This document shows positions 27,888-40,727 of a DNA stretch of 64,000 nucleotides, piece after piece (position 1 is the first letter of the stretch; each line of letters begins with the position of its first letter). Under the pieces are notes generated by a model. It was not told where the DNA came from. It saw only the letters and a list, made by a program, of their open reading frames with translations, and searched no databases. Source of the DNA: Fidelibacterota bacterium (GTDB lineage: Bacteria; Fidelibacterota; Marinisomatia; Marinisomatales; UBA1611); NCBI GenBank assembly GCA_028338895.1, contig JAOLAV010000001.1, positions 9,315 through 73,314 on the forward strand, given 5' to 3'. The translations under genes and the position numbers were made by a program.

Positions 27888-28733
27888 TTAATTAAAATTA
27901 AATGATCTTGTAATATTGAAGCCAAAAAATACATCCCCCCCTTTTAAGGTACCGTTGGCTTCCTCTATATAAGCGCTTTCATAGGTTCCTTGTGCGTTTG
28001 TAATTATTAGTTGGAACACATGACCTCCAGTATCAATATCACAGCCTAGCCCCCAAGATTGTGTGAAACCTACATATCGTCCTCTCCCTCCTAATGGGAA
28101 AAAAGTATCACCGTTTAAAGAAACTCTTTTTGTTAATTTAATCCGGCTTCCGAGACCTATAGAGAAAAGATTATTTTTAGCTTCAAACCTTTGAATTAGA
28201 TTTTTATGTATAAGAGTAGGTATTATTTGAATGGATAAATTTTGATTTACTTTACGAGCTAATAATAATTGGAAGTCATAAATAAGACGATTATTAAAGT
28301 TTTCATTTTTAGCTATTGTTGCAATTTCTACTTTTGAAAATAAAACTATAGATGCGAAAGATAATGATGGTGTTGATTTCTGAGAAAATAATTTAATTTT
28401 TGAAAAAAAGTCATATGTTTTTTTATGACTACTCCTTCCCGCTCCCAAACTTATTTTTTCATTAAAACCATAACTTAGGTCAAACCTAGCCGATGCTTCA
28501 TCTAGTCCATACAAATCATAAAAGCCATTACTCATAGTACCAAATCTATGAGTAATAATGAATTCTAGTGTTTTACTACGTGGTAATTCTACCGATTGTG
28601 CATTAACTATCCTGGTCGCTTTGAAAGTCCCTTGTATTGGCAATGGGACAAACTGTTCATCTTCTATAAAAGACAGCAAATCATCTTGAGCAAAAGTAAA
28701 CGATAATAAAAATATAATTAAAAATTTTCTCAT
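27888..28733 (-). CDS. outer-membrane beta-barrel protein (DUF5777-like)
   Basis: Signal peptide. Beta-strand-like alternation. It is 4-nt coupled to the upstream YceI gene. Confidence 0.5.
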   Translation of the reverse strand: MRKFLIIFLLSFTFAQDDLLSFIEDEQFVPLPIQGTFKATRIVNAQSVELPRSKTLEFIITHRFGTMSNGFYDLYGLDEASARFDLSYGFNEKISLGAGRSSHKKTYDFFSKIKLFSQKSTPSLSFASIVLFSKVEIATIAKNENFNNRLIYDFQLLLARKVNQNLSIQIIPTLIHKNLIQRFEAKNNLFSIGLGSRIKLTKRVSLNGDTFFPLGGRGRYVGFTQSWGLGCDIDTGGHVFQLIITNAQGTYESAYIEEANGTLKGGDVFFGFNITRSFNFN

Positions 28734-29266
28734 TTCTTCTTAAGTATCAGCTCAATATCAATGCTCAATGATTTTGCTATATTCTCTCGAACTATTTTAG
28801 GTATTTCAACACCATAGTCAGCAACAAATAAATTAAAAGTAGCATTCCCATAGATCTTATTATTTTTCATTTGAATAGTTCCATTTTCTTTTATTTTTTG
28901 TTTAATCCCATGAATCGTCATTTCGCCAGATATCATGATTGGTGTTGGGATAGCATTGAATTTAGTATCTTTCCAACCCTCTATAAATCCGCTAAAGCTT
29001 GCATTTGGATATTTCTCAGACTCCAAATAATTCTCATTAAAGTGTTCTTGCATTAAGGCATTTTTAAAAGTGAACCCTCTAATTGGTATTCGGAAAGAGG
29101 CTTGACCTGACTCAGCATCTAAAACACAGGTAACCTGGTCATTTTTTGCTTTTATATCTTCAATAAGTGTGCTAGAAAAAAATGATACAGACCCAGATCG
29201 TGTAAAATATAAATTTTTACCAAAAACAGGAAATGATAGAAATATCAGTATAAGTAGTTTAATCAT
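28730..29266 (-). CDS. YceI-like periplasmic protein
   Basis: The FTRSGSVSFFSST...FRIPIRGFTF...MQEHFNENYLESEKYPNASFSG pattern is typical of the YceI family. Confidence 0.65.
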   Translation of the reverse strand: MIKLLILIFLSFPVFGKNLYFTRSGSVSFFSSTLIEDIKAKNDQVTCVLDAESGQASFRIPIRGFTFKNALMQEHFNENYLESEKYPNASFSGFIEGWKDTKFNAIPTPIMISGEMTIHGIKQKIKENGTIQMKNNKIYGNATFNLFVADYGVEIPKIVRENIAKSLSIDIELILKKK

Positions 29267-29613
29267 TCACATTCCATTTCTAAAAATTGATGAAGAATGG
29301 ATATTTTATCATTCGTTAATTTTTCCCCTCCTAAAGGCATAAAACCAATAACATTTATATCCCTTTCAACTCTATTAATTATGCTGTTCAAACCATTTTT
29401 AACATCTTCATAATTATTTGTTAAGATCCCTCCTGAAGGACTCGTACCTGAGTGGCATCCATTACAACTTTGTGCCATTATTGGTGCCACAGAGCTACTA
29501 TAATATGATTCAATAATCAAACAGTCCTCAATTATTGGATCTGCATCAGCTATATTATTCTCACAGCCTTGAAAGAGTGCTAGCATTGCTAGTAATGTGG
29601 AAAATTTATACAT
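29263..29613 (-). CDS. CxxCH heme-binding-motif lipoprotein
   Basis: Lipobox LFQGC. SCNGCHSG motif. ...MPLGG...L...I..L..F tail as in the PSCyt-like domains of 4017 and 11318. Confidence 0.55.
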   Translation of the reverse strand: MYKFSTLLAMLALFQGCENNIADADPIIEDCLIIESYYSSSVAPIMAQSCNGCHSGTSPSGGILTNNYEDVKNGLNSIINRVERDINVIGFMPLGGEKLTNDKISILHQFLEMECE

Positions 29614-32795: not shown

Positions 32796-35700
32796 TTAAG
32801 CTGAATGGCGGTTACTGTTTAGACGTTTTACCCATTGTTGAAGACTTGCCATCTTTTCAATCATTATGCTACATACTCCGAATGATTCTTTCACAATACC
32901 TCGAATAATAAATAATTTTTCCCATTGAAGAAGATCTCCAAATTCTTTAAAAGCTTTAGGAAATAAAACACATTCATAAATATCTGTCTCATCTTCTAGT
33001 GTTAAAAATTGCATAGGTTCAGATGTACGAGTTATGGACTCTTTATGGGTAATACACAAACCGATTAAGTAAATTGATTTACCACAATAATTTGAAATAT
33101 CTTTAGCATAAATAATCCGATTACTGAGTATTCCTCTATACCGAGATACTGGATGGATAGAAATGAGATAACCAAAAGATTCTATTTCTAGTCTAAAAGT
33201 ATCTTCCTCATCAATTTTACGATTTAGAGGATTTCCTAACAGGGTATTTCGATTTTTATTTTGCAGGTAATACCCTGCAACTTTATATGCAATCTGTTGG
33301 TGACTTAAGTTGAATCCTATTTTGTCAAAGCAGCTTGCATTTGTAAGTGCCATCGCATCTGCCAGATCAAGGTCTACACGGATTAGAAAGTCATCAAGAG
33401 AATCAAAAAAACCAGCTTTTCGTTCATCCAAAATTAGATAAATTGATTTTTTACGAAGATTTTTAATACTCATAAAACCCATTATAATTTTATCATCATA
33501 ACCTCGCCATTCATAGTAGCTCTTGTTGATATCTGGTTTAATAATTATAATCCCAAACCTCCTTGCTTCACTCATGTATGCATAAGAAGAATAGAAACCA
33601 CCTCTATTCGATATTACCGCGGCTAAAAATTCTGCGGTAAAATGGGCTTTAAGATATGCACAAGTAAATGATAACATGGCATAAGAAGCCGAATGAGATT
33701 TACAAAAGGAATAACCCACGAAAGAAGAAATCATATCCCAAACATCATGAATTACTTCATTAGAATACCCCCTATCTATACATAGGCTGGTAAACTTTTT
33801 TTTCCACAATTTTATATGGCTCTGCATAGAATCACGACTCATTGTTTTACGTAATATTTCTGCTTCACTATATTTTAAACCAGCCATTTTCATAACCGCT
33901 ATCGAGACCTGTTCCTCATAAACCATAATACCATAACTTTCATTTAAAAAGTCTAAATCAGGGTGGATCAAATCCCACTTTTGCCCATGTATTCTAGAAA
34001 GCATTATATTCGTAAACCTATTAGCGGCTGGCCTGATAATAGAGGAGTAAATAACTAAGTGATTAAAATCAACAACTCCTGATTTTGATAATAACTGCCT
34101 AGTTGCAGGACTTTCTATATAAAAGACACCCATTGTTCTTCCAGACTTCATTATTTCATTTGTCTTTTTATCTTCTATCGGTTGAATATAATGATAGTTA
34201 AAATACTTTTTATCTATTTCATCCCCTTGATAATTCAAATTAATATGTTTAATCGTGTCACGAACAACAGATAAACTACGATTACCTAAAATATCAATTT
34301 TTAACAAACCTGAATCTTCGACTTGATCTTTTTCCCATTCTACAATCTGTACACCTTTAGGTGCCTTAAGAACTGGAACATATTTTTCAATCTCATCAGG
34401 TACAATAACTACCCCTCCAGAATGAACTGACGAGTGCCTAAAAGATCCAATTATTTTTTCACTTTCTTTTAAAACCTTAATCAAAGTCTCATCTAAATCT
34501 AGATTAGAAAACTTTGTGTCTGTTCGAATCCAAGAGACTAGATTTTTGCGTGATGTATACCAGCCTATTCTCTTGGTTATCTGATTAATCTCTTCATTAG
34601 AGAGTCCATAAACCTTACCTACTTCTCTAATAGCGGACCTTGGCTTTAAGAATACTTGATTTGAGACCATTGCGGTTCGCTCATCACCATATTTTTTAAA
34701 TATATAATTCAGAATATTATCTCGTTCATCCCATGGGAAATCAATATCAATATCAGGCATATCTTTCCTCTCTGTATGAATAAATCTTTGAAAATTAAGT
34801 GTATACTTAATCGGGTCAACCTGTGTAATAAATAAGCAGTAACTAACAATGGATGCAGCAGCAGAACCTCGACCAATAGTAGCATTGGTCTGCTTAACAA
34901 TATCCTCTACAATTAAGAAATAAGGAGAAAATCCTTTTTCATTAATGAGTTTCAATTCATATTCAATTCTATAACGAATAAGATCATTTAAATTAGTATA
35001 CCGCTTTTTAGCACCAGAATACACTTTATCTTTAAGCTTTGTATTAGACTTATGAGTATTCTTTAAAGAAAGTCCTGGAAAAATTGTATTTATAAATGAC
35101 CAGTTTGTTTTGCAACGGTTAGCTAAATAGTAGCTGTTATTTAAAAAACTTAAGCTGTTTGGAAAGAGCTCTATCATCTGTTCTTCATTTCTAAAGCAGT
35201 GTTGTAATGTTTTATACTGAGAAGAGTCTAAATTATCTTTTGTCGAATTATAATGAATAGCACGAAGTGTTAGATGAGCTTCATGATCACTTTTTGATTT
35301 AAAATAAACATCTCCTGTTACAACAACTTCTAATCTTAATTTTCTAGCTAAATTATGTATGATATTTTCTTGAAATCCAGGTCTTAGCTCTACAAATAAA
35401 TGACTACTTGGAATAATCTTTTTTAATAGACTTAATGTTTTTTCGTTATATGATAAAAAAAATAGACCTATTGATCTATCTCTTATAAGCTCAATAATTG
35501 GTTTATCCAAATTTCTGTGCACATCAGATATAATTCGGCAAAGATTTTCATACCCAGATTGATTTTCTACCAAAACAATTAGTTCATCCATCTTTGTGAT
35601 TAGGTTTACTCCAGCGATCGGACCTAGACCTCTATTACGCGCATGTTGTACAAATCGAATAAAACCCCATAAACCGTTCGTATCAGTTAATGCAATTTTG

Positions 35701-35798
35701 TCCATAGATGATTTTGCTGTCAATTCTACTAAATCATGTAAAGATAAGAGGCCACTCATTTTAGAATAGACTGAATGAGTATTTAAATGAACAAACAT
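32796..35798 (-). CDS. dnaE2: error-prone DNA polymerase III alpha-like (DnaE2)
   Basis: PHP N-terminus MFVHLNTHSVYS. About 1000 aa. It lies immediately downstream of imuB with a 1-nt overlap (TAATG). Confidence 0.85.
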   Translation of the reverse strand: MFVHLNTHSVYSKMSGLLSLHDLVELTAKSSMDKIALTDTNGLWGFIRFVQHARNRGLGPIAGVNLITKMDELIVLVENQSGYENLCRIISDVHRNLDKPIIELIRDRSIGLFFLSYNEKTLSLLKKIIPSSHLFVELRPGFQENIIHNLARKLRLEVVVTGDVYFKSKSDHEAHLTLRAIHYNSTKDNLDSSQYKTLQHCFRNEEQMIELFPNSLSFLNNSYYLANRCKTNWSFINTIFPGLSLKNTHKSNTKLKDKVYSGAKKRYTNLNDLIRYRIEYELKLINEKGFSPYFLIVEDIVKQTNATIGRGSAAASIVSYCLFITQVDPIKYTLNFQRFIHTERKDMPDIDIDFPWDERDNILNYIFKKYGDERTAMVSNQVFLKPRSAIREVGKVYGLSNEEINQITKRIGWYTSRKNLVSWIRTDTKFSNLDLDETLIKVLKESEKIIGSFRHSSVHSGGVVIVPDEIEKYVPVLKAPKGVQIVEWEKDQVEDSGLLKIDILGNRSLSVVRDTIKHINLNYQGDEIDKKYFNYHYIQPIEDKKTNEIMKSGRTMGVFYIESPATRQLLSKSGVVDFNHLVIYSSIIRPAANRFTNIMLSRIHGQKWDLIHPDLDFLNESYGIMVYEEQVSIAVMKMAGLKYSEAEILRKTMSRDSMQSHIKLWKKKFTSLCIDRGYSNEVIHDVWDMISSFVGYSFCKSHSASYAMLSFTCAYLKAHFTAEFLAAVISNRGGFYSSYAYMSEARRFGIIIIKPDINKSYYEWRGYDDKIIMGFMSIKNLRKKSIYLILDERKAGFFDSLDDFLIRVDLDLADAMALTNASCFDKIGFNLSHQQIAYKVAGYYLQNKNRNTLLGNPLNRKIDEEDTFRLEIESFGYLISIHPVSRYRGILSNRIIYAKDISNYCGKSIYLIGLCITHKESITRTSEPMQFLTLEDETDIYECVLFPKAFKEFGDLLQWEKLFIIRGIVKESFGVCSIMIEKMASLQQWVKRLNSNRHSA

Positions 35799-36970
35799 TA
35801 TGACTTCCCTAATGCCTGAAAAATATTAGCTGTTTGTAAAGCATTAACTCCGTATCGCTGCCGAATATTTTCAATGGCCTTAGATAACTCCATATTTTTA
35901 TCATCTATTGTTCTAAATATTGTTACTTGGTCAGCAAAAGGAAAAAAATGGCTAGCAACTATTAAAATTGTTCTAATTCGGTTTCTCCTCTTATTTGCTT
36001 GTTCAAATAATAATTGACAGACTTCTATCACTGAAAAATCATCAAGGCTTTCAACTTTCCCATATTGCAACATTTGATAACCATCAGCATAATGTATTTC
36101 AACTTTTATTTTTTTTGCTAACTGCCATCTTTTTCTTAATTCAAATGCAATCTGCTCAGCAAGATCTTTAACCAATGCATCTAAAATATTTTTAGAGTTT
36201 GTATCTTCGAATAAAATTGTTTGCCTTAAAATAATATCTTTTTCTTCTAATGGTTTAACTGGTCGAGAATCTTTGCCGTGTGATTCTTTTGCAAGTTGAA
36301 CAGAATGGACACCAAATAATATTTTGAATTCATCTGGGCTTTTTATTATCGATTGAAGACTCTTGATTTTATTAATTAATAAAAATTTAATTATTTTATT
36401 TACTGATTTCTCTGATGCGGTAGGCAAAATATCTGGGTCTAAATATGAAAAAAATTGAGATTCTAACCCTTCTTTAACTTGATAAATTTTATCTGAAGTA
36501 ACGGTTGTGATTGTTTGACTTACCAATTTATTAGATCCTATCCCGACTTGTCCGATAACTCTTGTTTTATTATTTATAGATTCAAGAATAGATAAACCAT
36601 TATTTTGAACATCTCCTCTTAAAAGTCGCATACCATTCATATCTAAGAAGAACTCTCCTATTCCTCTTGGCTCAACAATAGGTGTATGCATAGATACAGT
36701 GTTGTAGATATATTTATTTAATTTTGTATAAAGTGATTTATTATAGGGCAACAAGCGAACTCCATGATTTACTTTTCGTATTGTTGAGACTTTCATACCA
36801 CAAGAGAACCCTTCTTCTTCAGCTTCCGGAGATAGAGCAATAATTATACTATTAGAACTATTTGATGATATGATGGCAACAGGACGTTTTTTTAAAGTAG
36901 GATCTATAATCTGCTCTGCCTGAAGCTCTAGACCCTTAAGACGTATGTGAAAAACGTCTCTTACATTCAT
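35798..36970 (-). CDS. imuB: ImuB-like inactive Y-family polymerase
   Basis: Y-family-like fold with the catalytic acidic residues replaced (FHIRLKGLELQ instead of DxD; GIGEFFLDMNG). Gene order is lexA-imuB-dnaE2. Confidence 0.7.
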   Translation of the reverse strand: MNVRDVFHIRLKGLELQAEQIIDPTLKKRPVAIISSNSSNSIIIALSPEAEEEGFSCGMKVSTIRKVNHGVRLLPYNKSLYTKLNKYIYNTVSMHTPIVEPRGIGEFFLDMNGMRLLRGDVQNNGLSILESINNKTRVIGQVGIGSNKLVSQTITTVTSDKIYQVKEGLESQFFSYLDPDILPTASEKSVNKIIKFLLINKIKSLQSIIKSPDEFKILFGVHSVQLAKESHGKDSRPVKPLEEKDIILRQTILFEDTNSKNILDALVKDLAEQIAFELRKRWQLAKKIKVEIHYADGYQMLQYGKVESLDDFSVIEVCQLLFEQANKRRNRIRTILIVASHFFPFADQVTIFRTIDDKNMELSKAIENIRQRYGVNALQTANIFQALGKS

Positions 36971-36980
36971 AGAGTTTTAC

Positions 36981-37601
36981 CTAATTCAAATAATTTCTAA
37001 AAGAATAGAGCAGAACACCGTTGATACGGAAATCATCTGTTGGATCAATTTTTATAATTGGAAAATTTGGGTTTCGAGCATGAAGCTCTACACCATTACT
37101 ACTAGGCATGTAACATTTTAAAGTTGCTTCTCCATTAATAATTGCAACAACAATCTGACCAGATCGAGCAATGCTTGTTTTTTTAGCAACAATAAAATCG
37201 CCATCATGAATCTGTTCTTCTATCATCGAATCACCCTTTACTTGTAGCACATAATGATCCGGATGTAATAAAGATGACGGGACGTCCACCATTTCAGGAT
37301 TTTCTAAAGCTTCAATTGGCTCACCAGCAGCAATTAAGCCCAACAACGGTAAACGAGCCATTGTACTTGTGATGTGCTCATTTTGATTTAAAATAAGCGC
37401 TCGTTTCCCGTTGGGGCCTTTTATACGCGATAGATGACCTTTATCTTCCAAGGTCTTTACATACCAATTAACTGTCCCTAATGATCCAAAGCCTAGACTG
37501 GTCATAATCTCTTCATAAGATGGAGATTGACCATTCATGAGTGTAAACCTTTGAATAAAGTTTAAAAACTTTTCTAATTTAGGAGACAGCATCTTGTTCA
37601 T
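36981..37601 (-). CDS. lexA: LexA repressor
   Basis: wHTH (SPSYEEIMTSLGFGSLGTVNWYVKTLEDKGHL). Cleavage region LIAAGEP. Ser-Lys dyad context VKGDSM ... ATLKCY. ATG 37601 is preferred over the track's TTG at 37640. Confidence 0.85.
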   Translation of the reverse strand: MNKMLSPKLEKFLNFIQRFTLMNGQSPSYEEIMTSLGFGSLGTVNWYVKTLEDKGHLSRIKGPNGKRALILNQNEHITSTMARLPLLGLIAAGEPIEALENPEMVDVPSSLLHPDHYVLQVKGDSMIEEQIHDGDFIVAKKTSIARSGQIVVAIINGEATLKCYMPSSNGVELHARNPNFPIIKIDPTDDFRINGVLLYSFRNYLN

Positions 37602-37753
37602 GAGGTAATAGACAAGTTTGTAATTCCCTTTCCATTCCAAACAATAGATTGGGATGATAATTTATTTGCATGACTATTTAAACGTGAAACAGCACGTATT
37701 ACTTCAAAGGATAACATCTGTTTATTTTTTTTCTTAATAAAATATTTCATCAT
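37598..37753 (-). CDS. 51-aa ORF translationally coupled to lexA (ATGA overlap)
   Basis: MMKYFIKKKNKQMLSFEVIRAVSRLNSHANKLSSQSIVWNGKGITNLSITS. Its stop TGA shares TG with the lexA ATG. It sits between the candidate operator and lexA. Confidence 0.3.
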   Translation of the reverse strand: MMKYFIKKKNKQMLSFEVIRAVSRLNSHANKLSSQSIVWNGKGITNLSITS

Positions 37754-37772
37754 AAAAATCTCTCTTTGTTTG

Positions 37773-37794
37773 TTACTCGTAAGTTACTCGTAAG
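37773..37794 (-). promoter_or_regulatory. tandem 11-bp repeat TTACTCGTAAG x2 (two TTAC-N2-GTAA palindromes), candidate LexA operator
   Basis: Perfect direct repeat 19 nt upstream of the small ORF ATG. A TAnnTTTG-like box (TACTTTTG, 37802..37809, minus strand) lies just upstream. Confidence 0.45.
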
Positions 37795-37831
37795 TATATT
37801 ACAAAAGTATTTATTCATCTCCAAATAAAAA

Positions 37832-37848
37832 ACCCTCAATAATGGGGG
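37832..37848. terminator. bidirectional terminator hairpin
   Basis: A-run, CCCTCA-ATAA-TGGGGG, T-run. It separates the PAS-MenA gene from the lexA operon. Confidence 0.6.
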
Positions 37849-37886
37849 TTTTTGAAAAAAGAGAAAGGTTAGAAAACTATTTTATA

Positions 37887-39239: not shown

Positions 39240-40013
39240 TCACACTGGATAAAAAATCGGTCGGCTTGGTGCAGCATCTAGATTCCAATTAGGAATTTGA
39301 ATTTGTAAAAAGCCAAAACTGTCCTCTACCGAATTAGGTATGTATAATAATTCAGATATAGTTTTTCCTTTTTTAAAAAATTCATGATGGTTTCCAAGTA
39401 TTCCACCATCATCGGCTTTATCAATTGAAGGTAAATCTACCAGTAGATGCTGGACAGAGAGTTTGCTTAAGTATTTAATAGCATCTGAAGTAAAAAATGG
39501 AGCTATCTCTAGGTCGTAATTCCGGTTTTTTTTGAGGCTTGTATTAGGCAAAGTCCGAATAATTAAAGAGGATATCTGGTCTTTAATTTTACTCACTAAC
39601 ATTTTCTTTGATATTACAAGATCTGAAGCGATTTTAGCATGATATGAATCTGAAGTATTAGATATATGATCAGGCTTTAAAGAAATTAATTGTGAAGGAA
39701 TAAAACTTCTAGGACAAACATCAACTATTTTAGTTTCACTTTCACTCACATGGCTTATACATTCAGTATGAGTTCCTGTACAATGAATATCAATAGAAGC
39801 AATACCAACATTACAACTTCCACCCTGTTTTATATCACCTTTAAAGCCTCCAATTTGAACAGGATTCAGACTCGATTGTTTAGCCTTAAAAAAAATAGGA
39901 TTTTTATTATCAAAGTTATTTTTTAATGAAAGGTCAATCCCCTGGTCAGTTTTTATAAAATATGACCTGCCTTTATACTCGACCTTAGTCGTTAGCTCTG
40001 TTTCAGATTCCAT
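39240..40013 (-). CDS. putative cyclase / arylformamidase-family protein
   Basis: HCTGTHTECISH resembles HxGTHxDxPxH. DLPSID resembles the family's DxxSxD motif. Confidence 0.5.
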   Translation of the reverse strand: MESETELTTKVEYKGRSYFIKTDQGIDLSLKNNFDNKNPIFFKAKQSSLNPVQIGGFKGDIKQGGSCNVGIASIDIHCTGTHTECISHVSESETKIVDVCPRSFIPSQLISLKPDHISNTSDSYHAKIASDLVISKKMLVSKIKDQISSLIIRTLPNTSLKKNRNYDLEIAPFFTSDAIKYLSKLSVQHLLVDLPSIDKADDGGILGNHHEFFKKGKTISELLYIPNSVEDSFGFLQIQIPNWNLDAAPSRPIFYPV

Positions 40014-40227
40014 TTATTAGTTTAATAATCTCTCCATCGTTGGGAAAACGTTTTAGTGATTTTTTTGAAAAAATTAAATTCTCATCAAGCATGACTTCAA
40101 AAACACCTCCACTGCTAGATATCAAATTAATATCAATATTACTAAATTCGTTTTTTAATTCATGTTCCAAACTGGAAGCATTAGGAAGGTAATTTCACAT
40201 GCTACAATATTCGATAGAGACTTTCAT
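40003..40227 (-). CDS. SelW/Rdx-family selenoprotein (C-x-x-U), 74 aa with in-frame TGA at 40195..40197
   Basis: Manual translation MKVSIEYCSM-U-NYLPNASSLEHELKNEF...SSSGGVFEVMLDENLIFSKKSLKRFPNDGEIIKLI matches the Rdx family pattern (IxYC..[CU]. ... GG.FEV...g.LI.SK....FP). The ATG overlaps the upstream stop (TAATG). Confidence 0.75.
40165..40177 (-). other. candidate bacterial SECIS apical hairpin for the SelW-like gene
   Basis: UUCCA-GUU-UGGAA, with the loop G 23 nt after the UGA. Possible lower stem UAAU/AUUA. Confidence 0.4.
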
Positions 40228-40727
40228 TAATCCTCCATTTTTTGTTCATTAAAAAATTTTAAAATATCTTCAGGGTGACTATGAATATTTACTTCATCAA
40301 AAATATGTACTAAAATTCCATTTTCGTCAATTAAAAATGTTTTTCTAGAAGGGAAAAAATAATATTTATTTACTTTATATGCAGAGCCAGTTGTTTTTTT
40401 GCTATCCGATAAAAAGTTGAAAGGTAGGTTATATTTTTCTTTAAACTTTTTCAGACTACTTTTTGAGTCAAAGCTGATGCCTAATATTGAGATATCAAAA
40501 TCACTAAAATTTTGGAATTCATCACGGAACCCACAGGCCTGTTTAATTCATCCAGGAGTCTCAGCTTTAGGGAAAAAATAAATAACAAGTTTTTCACCTC
40601 TGTAATCTTTTAGATTATGCAGCTTATTATCTTGATCATATAATTTAAATTCAGGCGCATGTTCACCAACTTTTAGAGGTGAGCTAAAAAGTAATGTATT
40701 TAAAAATAAAATCAATAAATTTCTCAT
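40227..40727 (-). CDS. BCP/PrxQ-type peroxiredoxin with selenocysteine at the peroxidatic position (U60), in-frame TGA at 40548..40550
   Basis: The track ORF stops at FFPKAETPG-TGA. The same frame continues IKQACGFRDEF...ILGISFDS...FNFLSDS...RKTFLIDENGILVHIFD to TAA at 40227 and is collinear with E. coli Bcp (FYPKAMTPGCTVQACGLRD...). Start placed at ATG 40727. Confidence 0.8.
40523..40541 (-). other. candidate SECIS hairpin for the Sec-peroxiredoxin
   Basis: CAGGCC-UGUG-GG(UU)CC(G)UG begins 7 nt after the UGA. Possible lower stem AAUU/AAUU. The sequence also encodes the conserved QACGFR, so the structure is unproven. Confidence 0.3.

What the first reader, a model, noticed from the sequence alone, without database searches (positions are those of the whole stretch)
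32796..37809. lexA-imuB-dnaE2 mutagenesis cassette without imuA, preceded by a tandem TTAC-N2-GTAA repeat and a coupled 51-aa ORF
LexA, an ImuB-like inactive Y-family protein and DnaE2 are tightly linked: the gaps are 10 nt and a 1-nt overlap. No imuA/sulA-like gene lies between them.

Upstream, a perfect tandem repeat TTACTCGTAAG TTACTCGTAAG (37773-37794) forms two short palindromes. It lies just downstream of a TACTTTTG box and 19 nt upstream of a 51-aa ORF. The stop of that ORF overlaps the lexA ATG (ATGA).

TTAC/GTAA half-sites recall palindromic LexA boxes reported for some non-model lineages; I recall TTAC-N3-GTAA for Bdellovibrio. The spacing here is different, so this may be a lineage-specific SOS box. 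The small ORF could be an unrecognised cassette component.
Basis: partly seen in the sequence, partly recalled or inferred. Interest (0 to 1): 0.6.

Follow-up and report, generated by a model that had tools for sequence, protein, structure and literature searches.

The report
SAR406 SOS operator and LexA-coupled small gene
The 22-base tandem repeat in front of this marine SAR406 bacterium's lexA–error-prone-polymerase operon is most likely the hitherto undescribed DNA-damage (LexA) operator of the whole phylum, and the 51-codon gene that follows it is a real, conserved small protein tied to lexA whose function is unknown.

Summary

**Organism.** The window comes from a 55%-complete Marinisomatales (SAR406/Marinimicrobia) MAG.

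**Operator.** The repeat is best read on the coding strand as ACTTACGAG-N2-ACTTACGAG(TA), a direct repeat with an 11-bp period lying directly after an extended -10 box.
- It occurs essentially once per genome in the order. It was found in 78 of 151 genomes, and all 78 also carry this LexA clade. No genome has the motif without that LexA.
- It persists upstream of lexA down to 48% LexA identity and across the phylum.
- In sister families the same motif precedes lexA-recA, umuD-umuC and a lexA-less imuB-dnaE2 operon. It is therefore the phylum's SOS box.
- In this order the regulon has shrunk to this one operon; recA has no site.
- The TTAC-N2-GTAA palindrome reading fits the conservation pattern less well than the direct-repeat reading.

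**Cassette.** It lacks both ImuA and the ImuB-C domain, which makes it a variant already catalogued computationally (Timinskas & Venclovas 2019).

**Small ORF.** It is under purifying selection (dN/dS 0.29, against 0.9–1.6 in the shifted frames). It is restricted to part of the order and stays with lexA even where the polymerase genes are absent.

Binding and induction remain untested. The scan noted the same repeat in another genome (e1-2299231).

The parts
37819..37824 (-). -35-like hexamer TTGGAG of the operon promoter, 17 nt upstream of the -10 hexamer
   Evidence: Read from the sequence. In the alignment of 66 orthologous promoters the TTG at this position is a conservation peak. Function as a promoter element is inferred; the generic promoter scan did not list it.
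37796..37803 (-). extended -10 box TGTAATAT (TG-n-TAATAT)
   Evidence: Columns -8 to -1 of the 66-site alignment read TGTAAWAT: T 64/66, A 65/66 and T 65/66 at the key positions. Coordinates.
37774..37795 (-). operator ACTTACGAGTA ACTTACGAGTA: two 11-bp direct repeats that abut the -10 box and cover the expected transcription start; candidate LexA (SOS) box of Marinisomatota
   Evidence: Positions 0-8 and 10-19 are at least 58/66 identical across lexA promoters whose LexA is 48-100% identical to the window's. The motif is single-copy per genome and co-occurs 78/0/6/67 with this LexA clade. It is present across the phylum. It also lies upstream of lexA-recA, umuDC and imuB-dnaE2 in sister families.
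37598..37753 (-). small ORF (51 aa; basic N-terminus, one predicted helix containing the invariant V-x-R-A-x-x-R motif); its stop overlaps the lexA ATG
   Evidence: 43 distinct orthologues were found. Codon-position entropy is 1.02/0.74/1.39. dN/dS is 0.29 in frame against 0.93 and 1.6 in the shifted frames. A profile search found 117 clusters of 45-79 aa, all 'hypothetical' where a name is given. There are no Pfam or NCBIfam hits. AlphaFold2 predicts a helix over residues 16-41 with mean pLDDT 67.
36981..37601 (-). lexA (206 aa), self-cleaving repressor; the start is the ATG in ATGA, not the upstream TTG
   Evidence: Pfam PF01726 plus PF00717. TIGR00498 scores 137 bits against a cut-off of 111. 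The Ala-Gly site (IAAGEP), the Ser of GDSM and the Lys of TLKCY align to solved LexA structures. Orthologues start at the same position.
35798..36970 (-). catalytically dead Y-family polymerase homologue (390 aa) without an ImuB-C extension; the C-terminus carries a RecA-NT-like motif LSKAIENIRQRYG
   Evidence: IMS plus IMS_C domains. In the alignment to Pol IV 7yll, DMD is replaced by RLK and SIDE by GIGE. The domains end at residue 342 of 390. The C-terminal motif can be compared with the genome's own RecA N-terminus LDLAITQIDRQFG.
32796..35798 (-). DnaE2-type second pol III alpha paralogue (1000 aa); it ends at the OB domain
   Evidence: Pfam domains. A separate DnaE1 of about 1158 aa lies on another contig of this genome, and of four relatives. 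The protein scores below the NCBIfam cut-offs for both DnaE (620 bits against 1002) and the error-prone subfamily (527 bits against 939).
37823..37853 (-). stem-loop plus T-run terminator of the upstream PAS-UbiA gene, overlapping the -35 region; it marks the operon as a separate transcription unit
   Evidence: Read from the sequence. The same GGGGC-loop-T-run element precedes the promoter in most family members. The generic terminator scan did not list it.

Best explanation
The locus is a self-contained, autoregulated DNA-damage operon of a Marinisomatales (SAR406) bacterium: promoter – operator – small ORF – lexA – inactive Y-family protein – DnaE2.

**Proposed mechanism**
1. LexA binds the 22-bp operator. 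The operator consists of two 11-bp direct repeats, ACTTACGAG(T)A, with a TACGAG core. It starts immediately after the extended -10 box, so bound LexA would block RNA polymerase at the -10 box and the start site.
2. After DNA damage, RecA filaments trigger LexA self-cleavage. The Ala-Gly site and the Ser/Lys dyad are present.
3. The whole operon is then transcribed. This yields new LexA (a reset), the DnaE2 translesion polymerase with its dead Y-family adaptor, and the small protein.
4. RecA probably substitutes for the missing ImuA through the RecA-NT-like motif at the C-terminus of the Y-family protein.

**Evolutionary reading**
- The motif is the SOS box of the phylum. In sister families it also controls recA and umuDC.
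- In this order the regulon has contracted to this single operon.

**Small ORF**
- It is a real protein-coding gene confined to part of the order.
- It is co-induced and translationally coupled with LexA.
- My best guess is a LexA-associated modulator or a small SOS effector, rather than a mutasome subunit.

**Shown versus inferred**
- Shown: the sequence features, their conservation, the gene contexts and the coding constraint.
- Inferred: LexA binding, head-to-tail recognition of the two repeats, damage induction, the RecA-for-ImuA substitution and any function of the small protein.
For: 1. **Conservation at lexA.** The operator is nearly invariant in 66 non-identical lexA promoters, while LexA identity falls to 48% and the flanking DNA is unalignable.

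2. **Copy number and co-occurrence.** It is single-copy per genome: 81 sites against 8 control sites in 151 genomes. All 78 motif-bearing genomes carry this LexA clade, none has the motif without it, 6 have the LexA only, and 67 have neither. One of the six exceptions (G028) has a 3-mismatch site just upstream of lexA. In two others the lexA copy is at a contig end (G108) or partial (G098).

3. **Other SOS genes in sister families of the same class** (Pfam-confirmed for G270 and G261). The same motif, in the same position after a -10 box, precedes:
   - lexA-recA (G270, G292)
   - umuD-umuC (G270, G292, G273, G267)
   - imuB-dnaE2 without lexA (G261)

4. **Phylum-wide presence.** Zero- or one-mismatch sites occur in other classes of the phylum.

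5. **Recognition helix.** The predicted LexA recognition helix SLGT(V/I)NWY is almost invariant wherever the motif occurs.

6. **Parallel in a paralogue.** A paralogous LexA clade (helix SKGTVYKH) carries an analogous 11-bp-period direct repeat, (G/A)TAC-N7-GTAC-like, in front of its own ATG in all 13 loci read. This supports a direct-repeat architecture with a shared TAC core.

7. **LexA is cleavage-competent.** The cleavage site and catalytic residues align to solved LexA structures.

8. **Cassette conservation.** The lexA-polY-dnaE2 order holds in nearly all loci with enough downstream sequence and in five other families of the order.

9. **DnaE1 is separate**.

10. **Small ORF.** dN/dS is 0.29 against 0.93 and 1.6 in the shifted frames. 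A profile search found 117 clusters of the same size. In the three members checked, the gene always sits between the operator and lexA.

11. **Literature.** Direct-repeat LexA boxes (GTTC-N7-GTTC) and TTAC-N3-GTAA in Bdellovibrio are cited in PMC8565304. ImuA-less PolY-DnaE2 operons that often include lexA, and the RecA-NT-like motif, are described in PMC6511836.
Against: - No binding, cleavage or expression data exist.
- In the window's own genome the motif has one site only, so within this genome nothing links it to DNA damage except its position in front of lexA.
- The genome is only 55% complete, so further sites could lie in the missing half. However, near-complete relatives also have one site.
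- The sites were collected with the motif as the search pattern, which inflates apparent conservation inside the motif. The lexA-anchored collection was independent of the pattern and shows the same block.
- Each 11-mer also contains small dyads (TTAC-N2-GTAA; ACT-N4-AGT), so recognition as a palindrome cannot be excluded from sequence alone.
- The polymerase scores below the NCBIfam cut-off for the error-prone subfamily.
- The ImuA model did not pass its cut-off in the Caulobacter control either.
- The small protein has no detectable homology and only a modest-confidence model (pLDDT 67), so its role is a guess.
Confidence: 0.75

Rival explanations
1. The operator is two adjacent 10-bp palindromes, TTAC-N2-GTAA, each bound by a LexA dimer. 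It would be a spacing variant of the Bdellovibrio TTAC-N3-GTAA box.
For: Both 11-mers in the window contain a perfect TTAC-GA-GTAA dyad. TTAC/GTAA half-sites are the published Bdellovibrio LexA box (cited in PMC8565304). The regulon restricted to lexA plus the polymerase cassette also recalls Bdellovibrio.
Against: - Across 66 sites the palindrome is not what is conserved. The T of the first GTAA is T in 43/66. The final A of the second GTAA is A in 25/66 (T in 39).
- The non-symmetric centre GA (64-66/66) and the preceding AC (63-66/66) are nearly invariant.
- In wider phylum sites the conserved core is TACGAG, repeated at an 11-bp period.
- The paralogous LexA has a clear direct repeat, GTAC-N7-GTAC, with no dyad.
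- Half-site centres only 6 bp apart would be closer than in any LexA box I know of (my own knowledge, not tested).
Confidence: 0.15
2. The repeat is the operator of a regulator other than LexA. Candidates are the small ORF's product or an unlinked factor. On this view LexA is merely a passenger in the operon.
For: Binding was not tested. The small protein is basic and is always encoded next to the site within family f1.
Against: - The motif is equally conserved in the many families that lack the small ORF, where it abuts the lexA ATG.
- It never occurs in genomes lacking this LexA clade: 0 of 67.
- It precedes other classical SOS genes (recA, umuDC) in sister families.
- The LexA recognition helix is invariant wherever the motif occurs.
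Confidence: 0.05
3. The 51-codon ORF has no function in trans. It is a leader ORF whose translation merely delivers ribosomes to the lexA start, which has no Shine-Dalgarno sequence. Alternatively it is an accident of a conserved 5' leader.
For: - The stop/start overlap (ATGA or GTGA) is conserved in most orthologues.
- The last codons overlap the lexA initiation region.
- Families without the ORF express lexA from an almost leaderless transcript.
- There is no homology to any known protein.
- The structure model has modest confidence.
Against: - Purifying selection acts on the amino-acid sequence in this frame only: dN/dS 0.29 against 0.93 and 1.6.
- Invariant residues V, R, A and R lie in the middle of the peptide, far from the lexA start.
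- An AGG/GAG-like element precedes the ORF's own ATG.
- The ORF is also kept where its stop lies 4-14 nt before the lexA start, without overlap.
- No Rfam family matches the leader.
Confidence: 0.2

Closest known systems
Alphaproteobacterial LexA box GTTC-N7-GTTC (direct repeat; e.g. Caulobacter, da Rocha 2008, as cited in PMC9578287 and PMC8565304)
   Same: Two short cores in direct orientation with an 11-bp period. The box sits in the promoters of lexA and of error-prone polymerase operons.
   Different: The core sequence is different (TTACGAG/TACGAG rather than GTTC). The phylum is unrelated (Marinisomatota, which I place in the FCB group from my own knowledge). The conserved unit is longer (9 bp). 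In the window's order the regulon is a single operon.
Bdellovibrio bacteriovorus LexA system (TTAC-N3-GTAA; Campoy et al. 2005, cited in PMC8565304; the paper itself is not held)
   Same: The TTAC/GTAA letters occur in the site. By my recollection of that paper's abstract, LexA there controls only lexA and a dinP/dnaE-type cassette and not recA, as is the case here.
   Different: The spacing is different, and the palindromic symmetry is not conserved here. I did not test whether the two LexA proteins are specifically related.
ImuA-less PolY-DnaE2 putative mutasomes (Timinskas & Venclovas 2019, PMC6511836: the scDinB2-like and Bacteroidetes PolY2 systems)
   Same: A Y-family member is coupled to DnaE2. 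There is no ImuA in the operon or the genome and no ImuB-C. The operon often includes lexA. A RecA-NT-like motif sits at the PolY C-terminus.
   Different: Here PolY is inactive, whereas the Bacteroidetes PolY2 is described as active. The phylum is not listed in that paper: a word search of it for 'Marinimicrobia' gave 0 hits. An extra small ORF precedes lexA.
lexA2-imuA-imuB-dnaE2 cassettes of Pseudomonas putida and Xanthomonas (Abella 2004 and Erill 2006, from my own knowledge; PMC8565304 notes that lexA duplication goes with motif divergence)
   Same: A LexA copy is physically linked to the polymerase cassette and regulates it. Some genomes of the order hold a second, divergent LexA with a different box.
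   Different: There is no imuA. In the window's family the cassette LexA is the only LexA found. In sister families the cassette-type box also controls recA and umuDC, so it appears to be the ancestral SOS box and not a derived one.
Small proteins genetically linked to lexA or SOS (YneA, DivS, ChiZ, SidA, DdrR, DinI; from my own knowledge)
   Same: A short gene next to lexA, expected to be damage-induced.
   Different: No sequence similarity was detectable (Pfam and NCBIfam gave no hit). There is no transmembrane segment or LysM domain. It is co-directional, first in the operon and translationally coupled to lexA, rather than divergent from it.

Membership tests
LexA repressor (TIGR00498) | N-terminal winged-helix LexA DNA-binding domain plus C-terminal S24 peptidase domain | tested here: met
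   PF01726 scores 29.3 bits (cut-off 23.7). PF00717 scores 92.9 bits. TIGR00498 scores 137 bits (cut-off 111).
LexA repressor (TIGR00498) | Ala-Gly cleavage site and Ser/Lys catalytic dyad | tested here: met
   IAAGEP, GDSM and TLKCY align to the corresponding positions of solved LexA chains 3k2z and 8s7g.
LexA repressor (TIGR00498) | RecA-stimulated self-cleavage and specific operator binding | not testable with these tools
   This needs purified protein (EMSA and a cleavage assay).
SOS box (LexA operator) | Lies in the promoter of lexA itself (autoregulation) | tested here: met
   The site abuts the -10 box in 66 of 66 aligned lexA promoters.
SOS box (LexA operator) | Same motif upstream of other DNA-damage genes | tested here: met
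   Met in sister families: recA as the second gene of lexA-recA, umuDC, and imuB-dnaE2. Not met in the window's own genome or order, where the site is single-copy and recA has none.
SOS box (LexA operator) | Phyletic co-occurrence with its LexA | tested here: met
   78 genomes have both, 0 have the motif only, 6 have the LexA only and 67 have neither, out of 151. Related genomes are not independent observations.
imuA-imuB-dnaE2 mutagenesis cassette | ImuA (RecA-fold accessory protein) | tested here: not met
   There is no gene between lexA and polY. NF033429 hits only RecA, below its cut-off, in 39 of 41 genomes. Caveat: the model did not pass its cut-off in the Caulobacter control.
imuA-imuB-dnaE2 mutagenesis cassette | ImuB: catalytically dead Y-family fold | tested here: met
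   IMS plus IMS_C domains. The catalytic Asp residues are replaced: RLK for DMD and GIGE for SIDE, in the alignment to 7yll.
imuA-imuB-dnaE2 mutagenesis cassette | ImuB-C C-terminal extension (the proposed DnaE2- and ImuA-binding region) | tested here: not met
   The protein is 390 aa and the little-finger domain ends at residue 342. Only about 48 residues follow, and they hold a RecA-NT-like motif. No ImuB-C profile was available, so this is judged from length and architecture alone.
imuA-imuB-dnaE2 mutagenesis cassette | DnaE2: a second pol III alpha paralogue beside DnaE1 | tested here: met
   A 1000-aa copy lies in the operon and a 1158-aa DnaE1 lies elsewhere, in this genome and four relatives. 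The NF004225 score of 527 bits is below its cut-off of 939, so subfamily membership by HMM is not met.
Bdellovibrio-type palindromic box TTAC-N3-GTAA | Conserved inverted half-sites TTAC/GTAA with a 3-nt spacer | tested here: not met
   The spacer is 2 nt. The GTAA arm is not conserved: T in 43/66 in the first copy and the last A in 25/66 in the second copy.
Direct-repeat LexA boxes (GTTC-N7-GTTC type) | Two identical cores in direct orientation, 11 bp apart | tested here: met
   TTAC-N7-TTAC / TACGAG-N5-TACGAG is conserved in both copies. The core sequence differs from GTTC, so this is the same architecture and not the same motif.

The most novel reading that the evidence does not exclude
There are two parts.

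1. Marinisomatota LexA proteins recognise head-to-tail half-sites (xTACGxx at an 11-bp period). Two paralogous LexA clades share this architecture with different flanking bases (TTACGAG against GTACRC). That would make the phylum a natural system for studying how a LexA dimer reads direct repeats and how paralogues diverge in specificity.

2. The 51-aa protein is a new LexA-coupled SOS factor made in step with LexA. For example, it could tune LexA cleavage or binding, or RecA activity. It would not be a passive leader peptide.
Probability: 0.3. Interest if true: 0.7.

Novelty: new variant of a known kind. Interest (0 to 1): 0.5.

Why it matters
- SAR406/Marinimicrobia is one of the most abundant uncultured bacterial groups of the dark ocean (my own knowledge). 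I found no open paper that treats its DNA-damage response.
- A defined operator allows the SOS regulon to be predicted in hundreds of MAGs. It also shows a clear trajectory: a classical regulon (lexA-recA, umuDC, imuB-dnaE2) in some families, and a single self-regulated mutagenesis operon in Marinisomatales.
- It adds a second, unrelated example of a direct-repeat LexA box. The paralogue with a sister motif is useful for understanding how LexA specificity evolves.
- The small ORF is a new protein family that is co-expressed with LexA and easy to test.
- None of this changes the general picture of SOS regulation. It extends that picture.

Tried and rejected
- **Genome-wide enrichment of TTAC-Nk-GTAA (k = 0-8).** None was found. 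This showed that the short palindrome is not the informative unit.
- **Extra operator sites in the order** (G063 C5 and G044 C4). Both lie inside long ORFs without promoter context, so they are chance matches.
- **ImuA search with NF033429.** Only RecA was found. The negative is soft, because the model also failed in the Caulobacter control.
- **Pfam and NCBIfam on the small ORF.** No hits.
- **Profile search of 5.8 billion proteins with the small ORF.** It found only same-sized 'hypothetical' proteins, labelled Marinimicrobia where a source gives an organism.
- **AlphaFold2 on the small ORF.** A single helix of modest confidence. This is too simple for a fold search, so none was run.
- **Rfam on the leader region.** Nothing near threshold.
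- **Generic promoter and terminator scan.** It did not list the real promoter because the -35 box is weak. The promoter was defined from the alignment instead.
- **Campoy 2005 (PMC1196036).** The paper is not held.
- **Small ORF as an ImuA or ImuB-C substitute.** I considered and rejected this. It is absent from most families with the same cassette, and it is retained with lexA in a lineage where no polymerase genes lie within 2.4 kb downstream.

Full report
**1. Observation**

The minus strand of 32796-37853 carries the following features, in order:
- the stem-loop/T-run terminator of the upstream PAS-UbiA gene
- a weak -35 box (TTGGAG, 37824-37819)
- an extended -10 box (TGTAATAT, 37803-37796)
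- the perfect tandem ACTTACGAGTA ACTTACGAGTA (37795-37774).
- 19-20 nt of leader containing an AGAGAG element
- a 51-codon ORF (37753-37598)
- lexA (37601-36981), whose ATG overlaps the small ORF's stop as ATGA
- a 10-nt gap, then a Y-family gene (36970-35798)
- a 1-nt overlap, then a dnaE-type gene (35798-32796)

Domain searches confirm the three large proteins.
- LexA has the LexA DNA-binding and S24 domains and passes the TIGR00498 cut-off.
- The Y-family protein has IMS and IMS_C.
- The polymerase has PHP, pol III alpha, finger, HhH and OB domains.

Alignment to solved structures adds two points.
- LexA has the Ala-Gly site and the Ser/Lys dyad.
- The Y-family protein has lost two of the three catalytic carboxylates.

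A separate 1158-aa DnaE1 lies on another contig, so the operon copy is a second paralogue.

**2. Organism**

- The window is contig C1 of a 1.18-Mb, 55%-complete, 33% G+C assembly.
- Record titles of the closest loci name Candidatus Marinimicrobia/Neomarinimicrobiota, and one title carries a Marinisomatales contig label.

**3. Is the repeat more than chance, and what is it?**

The short pattern TTAC-N2-GTAA is not enriched (33 against 35). Comparative evidence for the longer element is strong.

- *Conservation at lexA.* I took lexA orthologues from 40 relatives without reference to the motif. The block TACTTACGAG-N-AACTTACGAGTA stands directly after a TAWAAT hexamer in almost every locus that is not cut by a contig end, while the rest of the intergenic DNA is unalignable.
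- *Position-by-position conservation.* In 66 non-identical promoters (LexA identity 48-100%), positions 0-8 (ACTTACGAG) and 10-19 (AACTTACGAG) are at least 58/66 identical. Position 9 is free (T 43, A 14, C 9). The two bases after the second copy are T 61/66 and A 54/66.
- *Copy number.* In 151 genomes of the order, the 20-mer with up to 2 mismatches occurs 81 times against 8 for the reversed control, and almost always once per genome.
- *Chance sites.* The two extra sites examined (G063 and G044) lie inside long ORFs and are chance matches.
- *Own genome.* Nothing else scores above 8 bits against 41 bits for the site. recA has no site.
- *Co-occurrence with this LexA clade.* 78 genomes have both, 0 have the motif only, 6 have the LexA only, and 67 have neither. 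Of the six exceptions, G028 has a 3-mismatch site just upstream of lexA, and two have a lexA copy at a contig end or a partial copy.

**4. The decisive evidence that it is the SOS box**

The motif is phylum-wide. In sister families of the same class it appears twice per genome. I cut out twelve such sites.
- In G270 and G292 one site precedes lexA-recA and the other precedes umuD-umuC.
- In G273 and G267 the two sites precede lexA and umuD-umuC.
- In G261 one site precedes an imuB-like/dnaE2 pair with no lexA, and the other precedes lexA followed by a GyrB/ParE-type gene.

Pfam confirms RecA, an S24-only UmuD, UmuC (IMS plus DUF4113), LexA and the topoisomerase subunit.

One motif, in the same place relative to a -10 box, in front of independent classical SOS operons, is the standard comparative argument for a LexA box. 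The predicted recognition helix SLGT(V/I)NWY is almost invariant wherever the motif occurs.

In Marinisomatales the regulon has contracted to the lexA-polY-dnaE2 operon. This resembles what the title of Campoy et al. 2005 states for Bdellovibrio (cited in PMC8565304; the paper itself is not held).

**5. Direct repeat or palindromes?**

Each unit contains small dyads (TTAC-GA-GTAA; ACT-TACG-AGT). The conservation pattern, however, is that of a 9-bp asymmetric unit repeated at 11 bp.
- The 'spacer' GA and the preceding AC are invariant.
- The symmetric partners (the T of the first GTAA and the last A of the second) are not.
- In more distant sites the part that persists is TACGAG-N5-TACGAG.

Independent support comes from a second LexA clade in the order.
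- It is 34-41% identical to the window LexA and has the recognition helix SKGTVYKH.
- It is present in families f5, f8 and f11, sometimes beside the first clade.
- All 13 of its loci that I read have an 11-bp-period direct repeat, (G/A)TAC-N7-GTAC in most, ending 2-3 nt before their own ATG.

The two paralogues thus share a TAC(G) core and the 11-bp period and differ in the flanks. I therefore favour head-to-tail recognition, as reported for the alphaproteobacterial GTTC-N7-GTTC box (PMC8565304, PMC9578287). This is inference; only footprinting can settle it.

**6. The cassette**

- lexA-polY-dnaE2 is conserved in nearly all loci with enough downstream sequence and in five other families of the order.
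- No ImuA was found. The ImuA model hits only RecA below its cut-off, with the caveat about the Caulobacter control.
- The Y-family protein is 390 aa and ends about 48 residues after the little finger, so it has no ImuB-C domain.
- Its C-terminus, LSKAIENIRQRYG, resembles the genome's own RecA N-terminus LDLAITQIDRQFG.
- This is the 'RecA-NT-like motif' that Timinskas & Venclovas (PMC6511836) describe in ImuA-less PolY-DnaE2 operons. Those operons 'often include lexA', and in them RecA is proposed to replace ImuA.

The cassette is thus a member of an already catalogued variant class, in a phylum that paper does not mention.

**7. The small ORF**

- *Distribution.* Forty-three distinct orthologues were found, in family f1 and in some genomes that the tool assigns to f16.
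- *Sequence features.* They share a basic N-terminus, the invariant V-x-R-A-x-x-R(L/I) motif, and usually S(I/V)VWDGKSIT...S(I/V)TS.
- *Coding constraint.* Codon-position entropy is 1.02/0.74/1.39. Pairwise dN/dS is 0.29 in frame against 0.93 and 1.6 in the two shifted frames. It is therefore a protein-coding gene under moderate constraint.
- *Homology.* A profile search of 5.8 billion proteins found 117 clusters. All are 45-79 aa with no Pfam domain, and all are 'hypothetical' where a name is given.
- *Structure.* The AlphaFold2 model is one helix (residues 16-41, mean pLDDT 67).
- *Absence elsewhere.* The gene is absent from most other families of the order, where the operator ends 3-7 nt before the lexA ATG.
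- *Linkage to lexA.* In the most divergent member I looked up, operator-smORF-lexA is followed by unrelated genes, with no polymerase genes within 2.4 kb.

It therefore tracks lexA, not the mutasome. Its function is unknown. I rank the possibilities as follows:
- a LexA/RecA modulator or a small SOS effector made in step with LexA (about 55% together)
- a purely cis-acting coupling ORF (about 20%)
- other functions or no function (the remaining quarter)

**8. Novelty**

- Searches of the open literature for LexA or the SOS response together with Marinimicrobia, SAR406, Marinisomatota or Fidelibacterota found nothing relevant.
- Already known: LexA-box diversity, direct-repeat boxes, minimal LexA regulons and ImuA-less cassettes.
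- Apparently new: this motif, its phylum-wide distribution, the sister motif of the paralogue, the regulon contraction, and the small protein family.
It also noted an analogous 11-bp-phased operator in Gemmatimonadota (e1-2131599).

**9. Limits**

- There are no binding or expression data.
- The genome is half complete.
- The relatives are not independent samples.
- Part of the site collection used the motif itself as the search pattern.

Noticed in passing
L147-L160 (genomes G057, G068, G090, G045, G048, G060, G105, G043, G055, G031, G028, G120, G123): A second LexA clade occurs in families f5, f8 and f11 of the order. It is 34-41% identical to the window LexA and has the recognition helix SKGTVYKH. 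Each of the 13 loci I could read has an 11-bp-period direct repeat, (G/A)TAC-N7-GTAC in most, ending 2-3 nt before its own ATG. This is probably a second, divergent LexA box. Some genomes hold both clades.
   Followed up: partly
L078:3650-4051; also L032 and L033 upstream of lexA: In some relatives a 133-aa GxxExxY-type ORF (my reading of the sequence, not run against Pfam) is inserted inside the operon. In L078, and probably in L072, L079, L085 and L088, it sits between lexA and the Y-family gene. In G032 and G026 it sits between the operator and lexA. This looks like a selfish or mobile small gene riding the SOS operon.
   Followed up: partly
L161:2900-5700 (also L162, L163): In one lineage, operator-smORF-lexA is not followed by the polymerase genes. 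Instead a 125-aa CxxCH protein, YceI and DUF5777 follow. The same trio was noted elsewhere in this window at 27888-29613.
   Followed up: partly
window 35798-35950 (C-terminus of the Y-family protein) and G000:C48:4101-4220 (recA start): The C-terminus of the Y-family protein, LSKAIENIRQRYG, resembles the genome's own RecA N-terminus LDLAITQIDRQFG. This fits the RecA-NT-like motif proposed to let RecA stand in for ImuA.
   Followed up: partly
L161:2117-2889, L164:1141-1311; window 39240-40727: Peroxiredoxin fragments split at a probable Sec codon, and an Rdx/SelW-like gene, lie just upstream of the smORF-lexA promoter in relatives. Similar genes lie close by in the window, so there is local synteny between the selenoprotein genes and the SOS operon.
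   Followed up: no
L137 (G272:C152) and L138 (G272:C77:88909): In G272, two ORFs of 104 and 116 aa flank lexA (one between the operator and lexA, one after it). By eye they resemble four-helix-bundle proteins of the '23S rRNA intervening sequence protein' kind; this was not tested. A second good operator copy in the same genome has no obvious ORF downstream on that strand.
   Followed up: no
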